Shown here one piece after another: positions 27,001 to 33,000 of a DNA stretch of 64,000 bases. How positions within the stretch are numbered: position 1 is the stretch's first letter; each line of letters starts with the position of its first letter. This DNA is from Candidatus Levyibacteriota bacterium (GTDB lineage Bacteria > Patescibacteriota > Microgenomatia > Levybacterales > UBA12049): positions 11,819 to 75,818 of the forward strand of contig JBBSGT010000001.1 of the NCBI GenBank assembly GCA_038253825.1. The letters are read 5' to 3'. Made by a program: the position numbers.

Positions 27001-30000
27001 GGTCAGCATCTACTATTGCAGGTTTAGCTAGTGCAAGTGAAGTACTTTTAACCGGTGGGCATGTGCTTGCTAATTCAGATTGGGATGTCTATTGGATAGA
27101 TGATACAAAATTTGATATTGTCTATCAAGATTCTACCACTACAACCCAATTCAAAGTCCTTACATGCCCCATTACCAGTGGGACAACCATTGGCACCTGT
27201 ACAGGACCGGCAACAGGAACAGCGACGACCGCACCCGGGTCGATGACTATAATCCGAACACCGAGTGCAAACAGGATATGGGTGGCAGTCAGACGGGGAA
27301 CGACCGGCGCAATCGAAGTCTATGACGCAACAACAACAGGAGATGCAGCCTCTGGTATGGCCTTTACCAAAGTAGGTGGTGGCTCGGGGAACTTGGTCAG
27401 CTATATATCGATGGTGGCTTACGGCTTATCTGATAAAGTAATCGCTGTTGTGCAAAACAATGGAACGAATAATTCAACCAAAGATATTGAGAGTCAAATT
27501 TGCACAACGGCCTCATGTACGGGAGTAAATGTCGTCCCTGCCACAGCTTTTGGTACCAATTTGACGAAAATGGGCAATCTCATTCGCATCTCAGATACTG
27601 ATTTTCGATTTGTCTATGTTGATATCTCCACACCTTCCAACCTCAAGGAAGCAAAATTTGATGGCAACACGACCTGGACCGCTATCTTTGCAACAATTGA
27701 TAGCGGTGGCGGACAAAAAAATCCATCTCTCTTTTATGACAGAACCAGCGGAGATGAATATGTCTTTTATGCCGATAGCTCGACCCCAAATCATATCCAG
27801 CGCTACTACAAACTTTCTGGTAGTTCATGGGGAGTGACAAAGACTGAGGTTGATACAGGTGAAGCTACTGCCAACTCATTCCCGATAACACAGATGCATG
27901 AGGCACCAACTGGAAGTTCACGTACTGTGCCGAGAGAATTACCATGGTGCTACCGTAATGCTAATGGATCAAATTTTAATATTGTCTGTGGAGATCTAAC
28001 ACTTGCTTCTGCAGGCTCGCTTGGATTAACAGCACCAAGTAGTACAACCTTAAGCAGTGTTACCGTAGCAGAAACAGTACAATCCAGTACGGGAAGTTTG
28101 GGGACAACGACTGCAAGTGATTCTCGCAGTGGCAACCCTGGATGGGGTTTGACAGTATCGTGTAGTGATTTTACTGCGAGTACACATACGATAGGTATTA
28201 GCAATTTGACCATAAATCCCAATAATGGTACCCTCGCTGTAGTATCCGGCTCCGGGACAGGAGTAACTGCAGGATCTTCCCATACCTTTACCAACACTTC
28301 AGATGCTGCAACCATTATGACTGCCACTTTAGGGAATGGGAATGGCCAGTATACGATCAATCCGGGATTGTCTTTGGCAATCCCCGTTGGTTCTTATGCA
28401 GGCAATTATACAGCTACGATTACTGAAACTTTATTGTAAAGCCAAGGATAGCAATTGCATTCAACTCCTATCTATGAAAAAATGGTAATAAGGCATAAGT
28501 AGTGCCTTTACTATGGCTGGGTTACATAAAAAGACACTGCATACAATTTATCACCATGTCCGGCATACACGCCCCAAGTGGTATCATGAATACCATAAAT
28601 GGGAACATCATAATACGCTGCATTGGGTTACTTTTGCTCTCTCATCAGTGGTTATGCTTCTGGGATTCATCAATGCGCTCCTACTGGCACAGCAGTATCC
28701 GCTCCAAGGTGTAAATGCTGCATCTACGACGGTGAATCAGCAGGTAAATCAAGGATTGTTAACGATTAGCTCAGCTGCCAGTGCAAATTTGTCGGCAGTC
28801 ACCGTAGCTGCGGCATCACAAAATTCAACAGGGAATCTTGGAACAGTGACGGTTACAGATAACACTGGGTTAGGAAACGGCTGGACTGCCAATGCCACTT
28901 GTTCACATTTTATTAAATATAATAGTCCTTTCCGAACGGGTGGTTCCGCTGGTACTTTAACTGTGGACAGCACAGCCACCTATAATAATGCTGTAGGTGG
29001 AACCTACACAATAACGATTGCCACAGGAGGATCCGTGGGTACTGCGACCTTTAACGTCACTGGTCCTGAATCATTAACAAATCAGACAACCGGCGCATCG
29101 GTCTCTATTGGGGCAAGAGGACTCGTTCTTGATTTTGCCCCGGCAACCTATACTACCAGTGACTCATGGACAATTCGTGTTGATGTCATTCCTGTCACAG
29201 GTTTACAAATCACTCCCGGTACTCGTTCTGCTAACAATGGTGCAGTATTGACAAATGTTACAGCAGGATCAGTGCATACGTTTTCAAGTACATCAGATGC
29301 AACAAGTCTAATGAGCGCAACGTCAGGATATGGTTTGGGATCATACTATGTTAACCCTGCATTACAGCTTTCTATTCCGGTAGGATCCTATGCAAGTTCG
29401 TATGTAGCAACATTTACAGAAACAGTGCAGTAAAAATATGATAAGAAAATTTGCCATAAATATTTTAAAAACTTTTGGAATAGTGATTTTATTTGCGCTA
29501 ACAGTTGTTCCACGGGCATTTGCTGTGCAGGAGGGTGACCTTGGGGCGTATCCTTCGCATTATGATCCTGATAATCCAAAGACAAAATCCTGGTTTATTT
29601 ATGATCTTAAAGCTGGCCAGACAAAAGAAGACAGTATTACTGTTGTTAATAATTCAGATAAATCTCTTGATGTAAAAATCTATCCTGTTGATGCTACTAC
29701 CACAAGCGATGGTGCATTTGCTCTCTTAAATAACGACCAACCCCAAAAGGAAATAGGGAGCTGGGTAAAATTATCCAAAGATCTGATAACAATCGGTCCC
29801 AAAGATCGCAAAGATGTCCCTTTTACTATTTCCCTACCCTCAAATGTTACAGTCGGAGATCATGCCGGTGGTATTATTGTGCAGGAAGCAAAAAAGCCCA
29901 CTATAGCAACTTCAGGGATGGGGCTCAATATCGTTTCCCGCGTGGGTACTCGTATCTATGAAACTGTTCCAGGAAATCAGATAGTGAGCCTAGATGTCCG

Positions 30001-33000
30001 TGATCTCTCCTATACAATTAAAGATAATCACCTTGTTTTCACTTTTGTAATGGAAAATAGAGGAAATATTATCTTAACTCCTACGGGGAATTTCCAAATA
30101 AAAGATGGATCGGGAAAAGTATTTGAAACAATCCCACTTGGCAACTTAGGTGCAGTATTCCCAGGAAAGCCCACGACAATTACTGTTACCTCAAAAAAAG
30201 ATGCTCCGTCTTTTGGCCAATATATTGCTACTGTCACGGTTAATTATTCATCTCTCAAATCAATCACAAAAAGTCTGACATTCTTTCTTTTCTTCCATGA
30301 TTGGTCTGTGATTCTTCCTGTGCTTTTATTGCTCCTGCTTATAATTCTTTTCATTATTATAAAAAAGTATTTATCAAGAAAACATAAATTCCAACAAATA
30401 GCACAACCGGAAATTTCTACAAACAAACCACAATCAGCATCATTTGCGGCAAAGAATATATCTGGAGAAAATGTAGATCAAGTATTTATTGCACACCATA
30501 TTAAATTGCTTGGAGTAGCTGTTCTTATAAGCGTTCTTGTCTTGAGCAGCCTCTTTGCATTTATCTTAAAGGACTTTGTTTTTAGTCCCATAATGCCGCA
30601 TGCTCAAGGATCTTCTACACAGTCAACTGTTCCAAGCAACGCTCCGCTTAGCAAACAGAACACAGTACCCACAGAGACAAGCATACCAATTAATAAAGCC
30701 GATATGAAAGTTATTATTTTAAACGCGAGTGGGAAAGCTGGCGTCGCAAAAGCACTTGGGCAGAAATTATCCAAAGATGGATTTTCAGTAGCAAAAATAG
30801 CCAATGCTGAGGGCACTTCGACACAAACAGTTATACAATATCCGATAGGTAAAAATGAAGAAACAGATTTACTTATGGAAGAATTAAAGAATGAATATGC
30901 TTCAGTTACAAAGGAAGCTTCTGATTCCGCTGTTTTTACCATTATTATTGGTAAGTAATATTTCAATCCTTTTCAATTTATTGTATACTTTTATGCGTGC
31001 ATGCTAAACGTGTGATTGTTAATACTCATATTGAAAAAACAGCAGGGACGTCCTTACTGCGATTCCTTGAGCAAACCATAGGCAAAAAACGTGTCGCCTT
31101 TTATGATCCGACCACAGACAGCGTGATTAAAATATCAGATCTATTTGTCTCTCCTTCAAATGATATCATTGATCAACTCCAGCTCAAGTCATATGCATTC
31201 TGGCCTCTGCTGAAACGATTTTATTTTAATACCCGATCAAACAAACGATACCAGACTACTGTTCCAAATGACATTGCTATTATTCATGGGCACTTTGTTG
31301 CGAATCGTTTCGATAGTTTACTGAAAGATCCTATCCGGTCAGTCGTGATTCGTGATCCATTAAAACGCATGCGTTCGCAATATGATCACTGGAAACGAGC
31401 AAAAGGAAGAAATCAGTGGCGTATAATGATCCCTTATGATGCCCAAATGAGTTTTGAAGAGTACGCCTTGCTTACTGTCATGCAAAATTATCAGACTAAG
31501 GCACTTGCAGGGAAGGATATCGCATCTTTTGATGTCGTTGGTGTTACCGAGCACATCGATGTTTTTACAAATAAACTGTTTGAAGTGTTGATTGAAGAAG
31601 GACATATAAAGAAAAGCATTCGCATGAATTCAGTAAAAAAGTTAAATCTCCATAAGAAGACTCATGAAACAACAATGGAATTTGAAAAGAAATTTAAAGT
31701 TTTTCATAAAGAAGATTATGAACTCTATAGGCAGGCACTTTCCCTTGCAAAGTAATTTAGTTTATCCAACCCCAATTGATAAATACGGTTGAGAAGAAGA
31801 GAAGGAAGATTATAAAAATTGCCACCGTACCTTCATACCAAATGCCCTTTAGTTTCATTGCCAAAAATATAAATAAAGGGAAAATCACTGTCTCATATCT
31901 TGCATATGAAGTAAAACTTTTGATAAGAAGTGGCGCAATGCTGAGACTAAGAATAATGTACCACAATTCAGGACGGAGAGCTTTTTTACTTTTAATAAGA
32001 AGAATTAATCCGATTGCAAAGGTAATTATTTCTGTTTTTGAGACATTATAATCATGCCAAGGAAGTGAGAAGAATTGATAAATGGCAAGGATGTTTGTTT
32101 GAACATTTTCAATAAGCGAAACTTTTGGTCCCCAAAAAGCATGGGTAGTTATCCAAACAGTAGGATCACCCATATTTACTTCACCGACATACAATAAAAG
32201 CATAAGTGACGCAAACGGCAATAAAAGTACTGCTGTAGCTTTCCATAAGGAAATTTTTTTCTTTTGTAAATCAGTAATAATTGCATATAGCAATGGAATA
32301 ATAAGAAAAAAACCATTCACTTTTGTTACATACAGAAGTGCCAGTGAAAGTGTAATATGTACCCATTTTCGCTTCACCAAGGCATAACTAAACCAAACCA
32401 AAAGAAGCAAAAAAAGGCTTTCTGCGTAGTAAGCGCGATAAAAAAGACTCAATGGAAAAAACAACATGAGAAAATTTGTGCGCATGGCTATCTGATGAGA
32501 ATACAGTTTGCTGACGACGTAATATGTAGCAAAAAAGAGTGCAATGAGAATAATGTTACTGAAAATAAAAGCCGAAACAGCAATGTTGTGAATAATAGTA
32601 TTTATAAACGCAACGCTATAGGGATAAAGCGGAAAAAAAGCATAGGCATACTGATCCAAAAAGACATGATCCCCATGAGCTTCAATTTCTGATTGTGTTG
32701 TATAACCAGCTTTTGCGATACGGTAATACCACTGACCATCCCAGGCGCTTAGTGCATTGACAAGATTAAAATTCCCTTGCGTTACGCGTGTATCTGCCAC
32801 ATAATGAAAGCCTGTTCCATATAGGTACTTATTAAATGGCAACAATTGGTAGGAAACCATTAAAAAAGCATAATAAAAAAGTTGCAAAGCAATGAAAATA
32901 AGAAGACCAATCTTAAAATACCTCTTAGTGAACATATAATAAATTATTTGTTACTGTAAGCAAGAAGTCAATACGCAGGACAGTTGCTATAGCTTGCAAT

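What the first reader, a model, noticed from the sequence alone, without database searches (positions are those of the whole stretch)
29438..30958. DUF916-like surface protein fused to a LytR_C domain
The second DUF916-like gene carries, after its two TM helices, about 180 extra residues. These end in a segment ('ADMKVIILNASGKAGVAKALGQKLSKDGFSVAKIANAEG...VIQYPIG') that matches the C-terminal domain of LytR/LCP-family proteins. LCP enzymes attach anionic polymers to the cell wall. This is an unusual domain combination for a CscA-like protein, and it fits polymer anchoring.
Basis: partly seen in the sequence, partly recalled or inferred. Interest (0 to 1): 0.5.

Follow-up and report, generated by a model that had tools for sequence, protein, structure and literature searches.

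The report
WxL-scaffold surface protein carrying LytR_C
This is a real, intact gene from an uncultured Patescibacteria (Levyibacteriota) genome in which a surface-protein scaffold (WxLIP/DUF916) loops back through the membrane to display an extra LytR_C domain outside the cell. The design recurs widely in metagenomes but is undescribed, and it is not a wall-polymer-attaching enzyme.

Summary

The layout is signal peptide, two beta-sandwich domains, TM1, a basic cytoplasmic loop, TM2, an S/T/P-rich linker, then LytR_C. Both folded parts therefore sit outside the cell.

The fusion is not an artefact. Twenty-one homologs (34-57% identity) share the layout, and 50 of 71 long sequences scanned carry LytR_C. 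The gene closes a conserved five-gene WxL cassette.

There is no LCP catalytic domain, so "polymer anchoring" is not supported. I read the protein as a membrane-hairpin WxL scaffold whose LytR_C is a non-catalytic docking module; that last step is inferred.

It is a new variant of a known kind, of moderate interest. A second public assembly of this organism carries early stop codons in both DUF916 genes.

The parts
29438..30958 (+). Complete gene for the WxLIP-TM hairpin-LytR_C protein (506 aa plus stop)
   Evidence: ORF list; Pfam WxLIP_PGBD plus LytR_C; exact protein on record as P0087
29438..29524 (+). Signal peptide, residues 1-29, ending in AFA before VQ
   Evidence: Hydropathy peak at residues 4-31; helix 2-23 in the model; the family alignment shows an A-x-A-type end
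29525..29932 (+). First beta-sandwich (WxLIP PGBD / DUF916), residues 30-165, containing the conserved NPKTKSWFIY-LK strand
   Evidence: Pfam PF06030, 57.4 bits, residues 48-149; mean pairwise identity 0.62 in the family; Foldseek match to 9i25_C and 9i1y
29933..30301 (+). Second beta-sandwich (equivalent to WxLIP HBD / DUF3324), residues 166-288
   Evidence: Block pLDDT 84-93 over about residues 180-280; the Foldseek alignment to E. faecium WxLIP spans 261 columns, i.e. both domains; no DUF3324 Pfam hit at E up to 0.1
30302..30367 (+). TM1, residues 289-310 (the canonical WxLIP membrane anchor)
   Evidence: Hydropathy 3.48; helix 289-322; present in all relatives
30368..30502 (+). Cytoplasmic loop, residues 311-355: basic start KKYLSRKHK, variable middle, conserved VDQ-F--HH-KL just before TM2
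   Evidence: Mean K+R in the 15 residues after TM1 is 5.5, against 1.1 after TM2, across 22 sequences; loop length 24-68, identity 0.24; H354 conserved in at least 90%
30503..30577 (+). TM2, residues 356-380, returning the chain to the outside
   Evidence: Hydropathy 2.69; helix 343-381; every single-LytR_C member in the 77-hit survey has exactly two post-ectodomain TMs
30578..30700 (+). Disordered S/T/P/A/Q-rich linker, residues 381-421
   Evidence: pLDDT below 50 at residues 382-415; S/T/P/A/Q fraction 0.57, length 29-51, identity 0.27
30701..30955 (+). LytR_C domain, residues 422-506 (beta-alpha-beta-beta-alpha-beta-beta)
28513..29433 (+). Small WxL-type partner (306 aa), ending 4 nt before the target's ATG; N-terminal His-rich head plus one TM
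   Evidence: 38% identity to the WxL C-terminus of the 554-aa protein; 56% identity to the 300-aa paralog, which passes the Pfam WxL cut-off; same position in other cassettes
26775..28439 (+). Large WxL protein (554 aa)
   Evidence: Pfam WxL PF13731, 30.4 bits against a cut-off of 25, residues 445-552
25558..26694 (+). Paralogous WxLIP (378 aa) with the same two-TM hairpin but no domain after TM2
   Evidence: Pfam WxLIP_PGBD E 2.4e-12; family ectodomain HMM E 8e-82; TM segments at residues 312-330 and 352-370
21893..22795 (+). First small WxL-type protein (300 aa), the first gene of the cassette
   Evidence: Pfam WxL 30.3 bits against a cut-off of 25; 56% identical to the 306-aa paralog

Best explanation
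The gene encodes a WxL-interacting protein (the WxLIP / CscA / DUF916-DUF3324 family) of a Patescibacterial WxL surface-protein operon. Its usual C-terminal membrane anchor has been extended. After a cleaved signal peptide come the two beta-sandwich domains that bind WxL proteins. TM1 then takes the chain into the cytoplasm, a short basic loop follows, and TM2 brings it back out. A flexible S/T/P-rich linker then tethers a LytR_C domain at the outer face of the membrane. It is not an LCP glycopolymer ligase, because no catalytic LCP domain was found. Shown here: the gene is intact, both domain assignments hold, the architecture and gene neighbourhood are conserved, and charge bias fits a topology with both folded parts outside. 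Inferred: the WxLIP part holds the neighbouring WxL proteins at the surface, as in Firmicutes. Also inferred: LytR_C acts as a non-catalytic extracytoplasmic docking module. The most likely mode is LytR_C-LytR_C or LytR_C-LCP protein contacts that cluster the complex or position it at the wall-assembly zone. Direct binding to a wall polymer is the alternative.
Against: No binding partner or ligand of this LytR_C was tested. No second LytR_C protein and no LCP enzyme lies in the 64-kb window, and the rest of the genome was not examined, so a partner is hypothetical. The relative placement of the domains in the full model is not confident (pTM 0.32). Topology rests on hydropathy and charge bias only. 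Most distant relatives carry a LysM domain in the inter-TM loop, an odd place for a wall-binding module if that loop is cytoplasmic. The second sandwich domain gives no DUF3324 Pfam hit. A second public assembly of the same organism has a TAG stop at codon 40, so the gene is dispensable or inactive in at least part of the population.
Confidence: 0.6

Rival explanations
1. LytR_C is a direct cell-wall-binding module (peptidoglycan or a wall glycopolymer). It would give the scaffold a second, non-covalent grip on the wall. This is the charitable form of the first reader's 'polymer anchoring'.
For: The domain is extracytoplasmic and tethered by a flexible linker, like many wall-binding modules. 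LytR_C occurs in wall-ligating LCP enzymes, and mutants of the solo proteins have wall-integrity phenotypes (PMC11832169, PMC7831098). Relatives combine it with LysM in the same protein.
Against: The papers read here show no carbohydrate or peptidoglycan binding by any LytR_C; they call its function unknown (PMC11481543). The WxLIP PGBD and the WxL domains are already the proposed wall binders (PMC10599100). In the relatives, LysM lies on the opposite side of TM2 from LytR_C, so the two do not form one wall-binding unit.
Confidence: 0.22
2. The protein is an LCP-like enzyme, or part of one, that ligates anionic polymers to the wall. This is the literal reading of the first reader.
For: Only the shared LytR_C domain.
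Against: No Pfam LCP catalytic-domain match in the protein at E up to 0.1. The remainder is fully accounted for by two beta-sandwich domains, two TMs and disordered linkers. NCBIfam gives only a 20.6-bit partial match to Cei against a cut-off of 150. LytR_C-only proteins have no catalytic LCP domain (PMC11832169).
Confidence: 0.03
3. The fusion is an artefact: a frameshift, a mis-assembly or a read-through of two genes. Alternatively, the gene is a decaying pseudogene.
For: NCBI annotates only a 359-aa 'LytR C-terminal domain-containing protein' in assembly GCA_050997215.1. That record has a TAG stop at codon 40.
Against: The short NCBI call results from that single nonsense substitution, not from a gene boundary. 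The window ORF is continuous, and the intact 506-aa protein is on record from an 84.6-kb contig. The architecture is conserved in 21 homologs and about 50 clusters at 50% identity. LytR_C shows purifying conservation. Codon 40 is Ser or Thr throughout the family.
Confidence: 0.03

Closest known systems
WxLIP (WxL-interacting protein; DUF916-DUF3324-TMH; CscA of L. plantarum, DufA-C of E. faecium; PDB 9i1y and 9i25)
   Same: Signal peptide. DUF916/PGBD Pfam hit. A two-beta-sandwich ectodomain that superposes on the solved E. faecium WxLIP. A conserved N-terminal strand motif: NPKTKSWFIY-LK here against NQIDKxxxYFDLK in Firmicutes (PMC10599100). A TM helix directly after the second sandwich. Encoded next to one large and two small WxL genes.
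   Different: Length 506 aa rather than 320-380 aa. A second TM helix, a linker and a LytR_C domain follow the canonical anchor. No DUF3324 Pfam hit. Found in Patescibacteria, whereas more than 91% of known WxL sequences are in Firmicutes (PMC9772566). The cassette has two WxLIPs and three WxL proteins. The small WxL partners appear to be membrane-anchored.
LytR_C 'solo' proteins of mycobacteria: VirR (Rv0431, PDB 2m5y) and Cei (Rv2700; orthologue PDB 6q10)
   Same: The segment from TM2 through the linker to LytR_C has the layout of these proteins: one TM, a linker, then an extracytoplasmic LytR_C with no catalytic domain. They are the best and only significant structural matches and give a significant profile hit.
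   Different: Here the module is the C-terminal part of a larger adhesin scaffold. The NCBIfam Cei model scores 20.6 bits against a cut-off of 150. Identity is 17-21%. The phylum is different.
LCP-LytR_C glycopolymer ligases of Actinomycetota (Lcp1 Rv3267, CpsA Rv3484, C. glutamicum LcpA, S. venezuelae CglA)
   Same: LytR_C as the C-terminal extracytoplasmic accessory domain of a membrane-anchored envelope protein.
   Different: The catalytic LCP domain, which defines the family and carries the ligase activity, gave no Pfam match here. WxLIP sandwiches occupy that place.
Uncharacterised metagenomic WxLIP-TM-LysM-TM-LytR_C proteins (e.g. P0052, P0069; 557-830 aa)
   Same: Same ectodomain family, the same two-TM hairpin, and LytR_C (one or two copies) after TM2.
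   Different: They carry a LysM domain in the inter-TM loop, where the target has only a short low-complexity loop. Some replace LytR_C with a T2SSG-like module.

Membership tests
WxLIP (DUF916-DUF3324-TMH), as defined in PMC10599100 | N-terminal signal peptide | tested here: met
   Hydrophobic residues 4-31 ending in AFA before VQ. No dedicated signal-peptide predictor was available.
WxLIP (DUF916-DUF3324-TMH), as defined in PMC10599100 | PGBD (DUF916, PF06030) domain | tested here: met
   57.4 bits against a cut-off of 27.3, residues 48-149.
WxLIP (DUF916-DUF3324-TMH), as defined in PMC10599100 | Second Ig-like domain (HBD / DUF3324) directly after PGBD | tested here: inconclusive
   Met by structure: a confident second sandwich, and a Foldseek alignment of 261 columns covering essentially the whole 251-residue chain 9i25_C. 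Not met by sequence: no DUF3324 Pfam hit at E up to 0.1.
WxLIP (DUF916-DUF3324-TMH), as defined in PMC10599100 | Protein ends with a single C-terminal TM helix (total 320-380 aa) | tested here: not met
   TM1 is followed by a loop, TM2, a linker and LytR_C; total length 506 aa.
WxLIP (DUF916-DUF3324-TMH), as defined in PMC10599100 | Encoded in a cluster with at least two WxL proteins within four genes | tested here: met
   26775..28439 (Pfam WxL 30.4 bits), 28513..29433 (WxL-like) and 21893..22795 (Pfam WxL 30.3 bits). Conserved in other genomes.
WxLIP (DUF916-DUF3324-TMH), as defined in PMC10599100 | Physically binds a WxL domain | not testable with these tools
   No complex prediction or experiment was possible. 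Only the conserved N-terminal strand motif and the gene adjacency speak for it.
LytR_C domain (Pfam PF13399) | Sequence match above the Pfam gathering score | tested here: met
   43.4 bits against 22.2, covering profile positions 2-84 of 86; family profile against 2m5y at E 5.7e-9.
LytR_C domain (Pfam PF13399) | Fold of the solved LytR_C domains | tested here: met
LytR_C domain (Pfam PF13399) | Extracytoplasmic location after a TM segment | tested here: met
   Inferred from the signal peptide, two TMs and positive-inside bias across 22 sequences. Not shown experimentally.
LCP (LytR-CpsA-Psr) glycopolymer transferases | Catalytic LCP domain | tested here: not met
   The Pfam scan at E up to 0.1 returns no LCP-domain match. 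All folded parts are otherwise assigned.
LytR_C-solo proteins (VirR / Cei) | Protein consists only of one TM plus LytR_C; equivalog-level match to Cei | tested here: not met
   A 288-residue WxLIP part and TM1 precede the module. NCBIfam Cei scores 20.6 bits against a cut-off of 150.

The most novel reading that the evidence does not exclude
In Patescibacteria the WxL system may not be a wall-hung adhesin set as in Firmicutes. It may instead be a membrane-integrated, trans-envelope complex. In that reading the WxLIP hairpin loop (which carries LysM in most relatives) and the conserved His/aromatic-rich cytoplasmic heads of the small WxL proteins form a cytoplasmic-face module. The external LytR_C would dock the complex to the wall-ligation machinery. 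Surface display, perhaps for attachment to a host cell, would thereby be coupled to wall synthesis or to a cytoplasmic signal.
Probability: 0.12. Interest if true: 0.7.

Novelty: new variant of a known kind. Interest (0 to 1): 0.4.

Why it matters
WxL clusters have been studied as adhesion and virulence surface complexes of lactobacilli, enterococci and Listeria. LytR_C is a widespread envelope domain whose function is still unknown. A conserved natural fusion of the two has three consequences.

1. It extends WxL systems to the Candidate Phyla Radiation. As far as I know (not tested here), cell-surface contact with a host cell is thought to be central to that lifestyle.

2. It supplies a guilt-by-association clue for LytR_C: it can act as an accessory extracytoplasmic module on a non-enzymatic scaffold. 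That favours a docking or oligomerisation role over a catalytic one.

3. It shows that the WxLIP membrane anchor can be remodelled into a hairpin with exchangeable outer modules (LytR_C, tandem LytR_C, a T2SSG-like module).

It does not reveal a new enzyme or mechanism. In databases the domain pair is already annotated automatically, so the advance is descriptive.

Tried and rejected
1. A single-sequence database search with the TM2-LytR_C part found nothing, not even the identical P0001. This was a failure of the word index, not a biological result.

2. A profile search with the LytR_C alignment returned nine small proteins. The best two, P0078 and P0079, are contig-truncated pieces of P0024-type fusion proteins. 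True solo TM-LytR_C proteins (P0082, P0084, P0086) are distant. I therefore could not show that the module came from fusing a downstream solo gene.

3. I looked for a split ancestor, meaning a one-TM WxLIP followed by a separate LytR_C gene, in loci L001-L009. None was found.

4. The GTDB species-representative scan gave only 6 loci and one full-length fusion, in Ca. Levybacteria MFD01476.bin.1.95. It was limited by the two peptide patterns used.

5. A metagenome DNA scan for either allele at codon 40 gave 0 hits.

6. Promoter and terminator consensus scans were at or near background and uninformative.

7. The NCBIfam Cei match (20.6 bits against 150) was rejected as evidence of membership.

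8. The look-up of window protein 47316..48629 was not on record. I used 39746..41455 instead.

9. The idea that the window is a concatenation of contigs was rejected. MutS and MutL (14845..19408) run across the point where the shorter public contig ends, and an 84.6-kb contig carries the intact protein.

10. The neighbour-joining tree has no support values and is used only as a suggestion.
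Full report
**1. Is it there?**

Window 29438..30958 (+) is a single 506-aa ORF with an ATG start and no interruption. Pfam finds two domains above their curated cut-offs:

| Domain | Residues | E-value | Bits | Cut-off |
|---|---|---|---|---|
| WxLIP_PGBD (PF06030, formerly DUF916) | 48-149 | 1.8e-15 | 57.4 | 27.3 |
| LytR_C (PF13399) | 423-506 | 6.9e-11 | 43.4 | 22.2 |

The LytR_C match covers profile positions 2-84 of 86. The quoted peptide is present at residues 421-471. This is the second DUF916-type gene of the locus; the first is 25558..26694.

About 126 residues follow TM2, not about 180. The larger figure holds only if counted from the end of TM1.

**2. Source**

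An identical C-terminal 359-aa protein is annotated by NCBI as 'LytR C-terminal domain-containing protein [Candidatus Levyibacteriota bacterium]' in GCA_050997215.1. The exact 506-aa protein is also on record, from an 84,622-nt contig (P0087). The window runs continuously, through MutS and MutL, past the end of the shorter public contig. The window therefore comes from an independent, longer assembly of the same organism, a member of the Patescibacteria (CPR).

**3. Anatomy**

Hydropathy and an AlphaFold2 model built on 22 sequences give this layout:

| Segment | Residues | Notes |
|---|---|---|
| Signal peptide | 1-29 | Ends AFA, then VQ |
| First beta-sandwich | about 30-165 | Moderate confidence |
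| Second beta-sandwich | about 166-288 | Block pLDDT 84-93 over residues 180-280 |
| Helix containing TM1 | 289-322 | |
| Loop | 311-355 | Disordered; begins KKYLSRKHK |
| Helix containing TM2 | 343-381 | |
| Linker | 381-421 | Disordered, S/T/P/A/Q-rich |
| C-terminal domain | 423-506 | Compact beta-alpha-beta-beta-alpha-beta-beta |

Foldseek of the full model against the PDB puts three chains of the recently released E. faecium WxLIP structures first. These are 9i25_C ('WxLIP ... bound to long WxL') and 9i1y_A and 9i1y_B, with E from 3e-14 to 1.7e-12 over 261-262 columns. The N-terminal half is therefore a complete two-domain WxLIP, even though the DUF3324 Pfam model does not score.

A separate model of residues 416-506 has pLDDT 93.6. 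Its only significant PDB neighbours are the two solved LytR_C solo domains:

A profile of the family also hits 2m5y by sequence at E 5.7e-9. No LCP catalytic-domain match appears.

**4. Topology**

Across the 22 aligned family members, the 15 residues after TM1 hold 5.5 K+R on average. The 15 residues after TM2 hold 1.1. With an N-terminal signal peptide, this places the loop in the cytoplasm and both the WxLIP ectodomain and LytR_C outside.

The architecture survey agrees. Among 77 relatives, every protein with a single LytR_C (22, counting the target) has exactly two TM segments after the ectodomain. About 40 short relatives (300-335 aa) have the canonical single TM. A second TM is what an added outside domain would require.

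**5. Not an artefact, and not rare**

Twenty-one full-length homologs (34-57% identity) share the whole layout. Mean pairwise identity by region is 0.62 (PGBD), 0.54 (second sandwich), 0.44 (TM2) and 0.42 (LytR_C). Loop and linker are at 0.24-0.27. LytR_C is therefore maintained by selection.

An exhaustive HMM search of 1.84 billion representatives (50% identity clusters) found 17,949 hits at E up to 1e-3 and 851 at E up to 1e-30. Of the best 150, 70 are 470 aa or longer. Scanning these 70 together with the target (71 sequences):

- 68 have WxLIP_PGBD, 50 have LytR_C and 51 have LysM.
- Nearly all LytR_C-bearing members show the pattern TM, loop, TM, LytR_C.
- The target's LysM-less subtype accounts for about nine clusters of 480-531 aa.
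- Longer members place LysM between the two TMs (coordinates confirmed).
- Some have two LytR_C copies, or a T2SSG-like module in its place.

In a neighbour-joining tree of the ectodomains, three groups form one clade: the LysM-less fusion type, the hairpin-only paralog type, and three short sequences that are probably fragments (no support values).

**6. Neighbourhood**

In the window the gene closes a cassette:

| Coordinates | Product |
|---|---|
| 21893..22795 | Small WxL, 300 aa |
| about 22812..25499 | SdrD_B-domain protein, 895-915 aa |
| 25558..26694 | WxLIP paralog, 378 aa, with the hairpin but nothing after TM2 |
| 26775..28439 | Large WxL, 554 aa |
| 28513..29433 | Small WxL, 306 aa |
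| 29438..30958 | The fusion gene, starting 4 nt after the previous stop |

The same order, without the SdrD_B gene, recurs in four other genomes. The fusion gene follows the small WxL gene directly in all of them; where loci L002 and L003 were read, 4-5 nt separate them. In the most divergent branch (P0023, locus L010) the fusion protein is the only WxLIP, flanked by a small and a large WxL gene. That is the classic cluster of one WxLIP plus two WxL genes described in PMC10599100. The LytR_C-bearing form is therefore a working WxLIP, not an accessory copy.

**7. How it most likely works**

Established for Firmicutes (PMC10599100): WxLIP is a membrane-anchored scaffold whose DUF916 domain binds and stabilises WxL proteins at the peptidoglycan surface.

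Established for LytR_C:

- It is an accessory domain of actinobacterial LCP ligases and of the solo proteins VirR and Cei.
- Its function is 'yet unknown' (PMC11481543).
- VirR self-associates and contacts Lcp proteins through LytR_C domains, and localises to nascent wall (PMC11832169).
- LytR_C may drive LcpA oligomerisation (PMC7831098).

My inference: the ectodomain holds the neighbouring WxL proteins. The hairpin fixes the scaffold in the membrane. The tethered LytR_C is a non-catalytic docking module. I put about 0.35 on docking through protein-protein contacts, either homotypic or with LCP/LytR_C proteins encoded elsewhere in the genome. I put about 0.22 on direct binding to a wall polymer. 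Nothing supports an enzymatic role in attaching polymers.

Unresolved points are these. No partner lies in the window. Domain packing is not predicted with confidence (pTM 0.32). LysM in the putatively cytoplasmic loop of relatives remains unexplained.

**8. Comparison and novelty**

The protein meets the WxLIP criteria of signal peptide, PGBD and WxL-cluster context, and meets the second-domain criterion by structure. It fails the criterion of ending in a single C-terminal TM helix. It is a member of the LytR_C domain family. It is not an LCP enzyme and not a Cei/VirR equivalog (Cei model 20.6 bits against 150).

The held literature contains no description of the following:

- WxL systems in Patescibacteria. 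More than 91% of known WxL sequences are in Firmicutes (PMC9772566).
- A WxLIP-LytR_C architecture.

Automated annotation already records the domain pair. I rate this a new variant of a known kind, of moderate interest.

**9. A caveat seen on the way**

Over 31.6 kb of overlap, the window and GCA_050997215.1 differ at four positions, and three of them lie within the cassette:

| Window position | Gene and codon | Window | Public record |
|---|---|---|---|
| 25645 | First WxLIP, codon 30 | AAA (Lys) | TAA (stop) |
| 27522 | Large WxL, codon 250 | GGA (Gly) | AGA (Arg) |
| 29556 | This gene, codon 40 | TCG (Ser) | TAG (stop) |

This explains NCBI's truncated 359-aa call, which starts at an internal GTG. 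The family has Ser or Thr at codon 40, so the intact allele is the ancestral one. I could not decide whether the two stops are real loss-of-function variants in the population or consensus errors. The first lies at a T/A homopolymer junction.

Noticed in passing
window 25645, 27522, 29556 (and 46996) against GCA_050997215.1 JBPCRD010000003.1 (L001, L013): Two public assemblies of this organism differ at only 4 positions in 31.6 kb, and 3 of those fall in the WxL cassette. In the public MAG, two of them are early stop codons, one in each DUF916 gene (TAA at codon 30 of the first, TAG at codon 40 of the target). This could be population-level knock-out of the surface scaffolds, or a consensus error.
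   Followed up: partly
window 21893..22795 and 28513..29433; L002 3970-4863 and 9076-9993; L003 5035-5931 and 9081-9992: The small WxL-type proteins carry a strongly conserved His/aromatic-rich N-terminal head (HH-R/K-H/Y-TRP-WY--YH-WEHH--LHW) followed by one TM segment. In Firmicutes the equivalent proteins have only a cleaved signal peptide. The WxL partners here therefore look membrane-anchored, with a conserved cytoplasmic motif.
   Followed up: partly
L011 7152-9149 (P0052); also P0064, P0067, P0069 and 51 of 71 long sequences scanned: Most distant relatives place a LysM domain between TM1 and TM2. By the same topology logic that is the cytoplasmic side, an unexpected place for a peptidoglycan-binding module.
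   Followed up: partly
P0064, P0067 (relatives; not in the window): After TM2, some relatives carry a T2SSG (pseudopilin-like) module instead of LytR_C, and others carry two LytR_C copies. The position after TM2 behaves as an exchangeable slot.
   Followed up: no
window 25558..26694: The first WxLIP paralog has the same two-TM hairpin but ends a few residues after TM2, with no outer domain. The hairpin therefore exists independently of LytR_C. P0025 has the same form.
   Followed up: partly
window 22752..25499 (NCBI call corresponds to about 22812..25499): A protein of 895-915 aa with SdrD_B and Big_13 domains sits inside the cassette in this genome only. The cassettes in L002, L003, L012 and the P0009 contig lack it.
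   Followed up: no
window 19928..21745 (-), 30997..31755 (+), 31757..32935 (-): A bifunctional ATP-sulfurylase/APS-kinase (PAPS synthesis) lies just upstream of the cassette. A weak sulfotransferase-like gene (Sulfotransfer_2, E 0.0045, below the cut-off) and a 392-aa ORF with long hydrophobic stretches and no Pfam hit lie just downstream. This might point to sulfation of a surface component.
   Followed up: no
P0110, P0116, P0120, P0133, P0141, P0151, P0198, P0205 (representatives): Some relatives contain two WxLIP ectodomains in one polypeptide, separated by TM segments.
   Followed up: no
window 62151..63914 (-): A protein resembling a type IV secretion coupling protein (T4SS-DNA_transf and TraG-D_C domains) lies at the window edge.
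   Followed up: no
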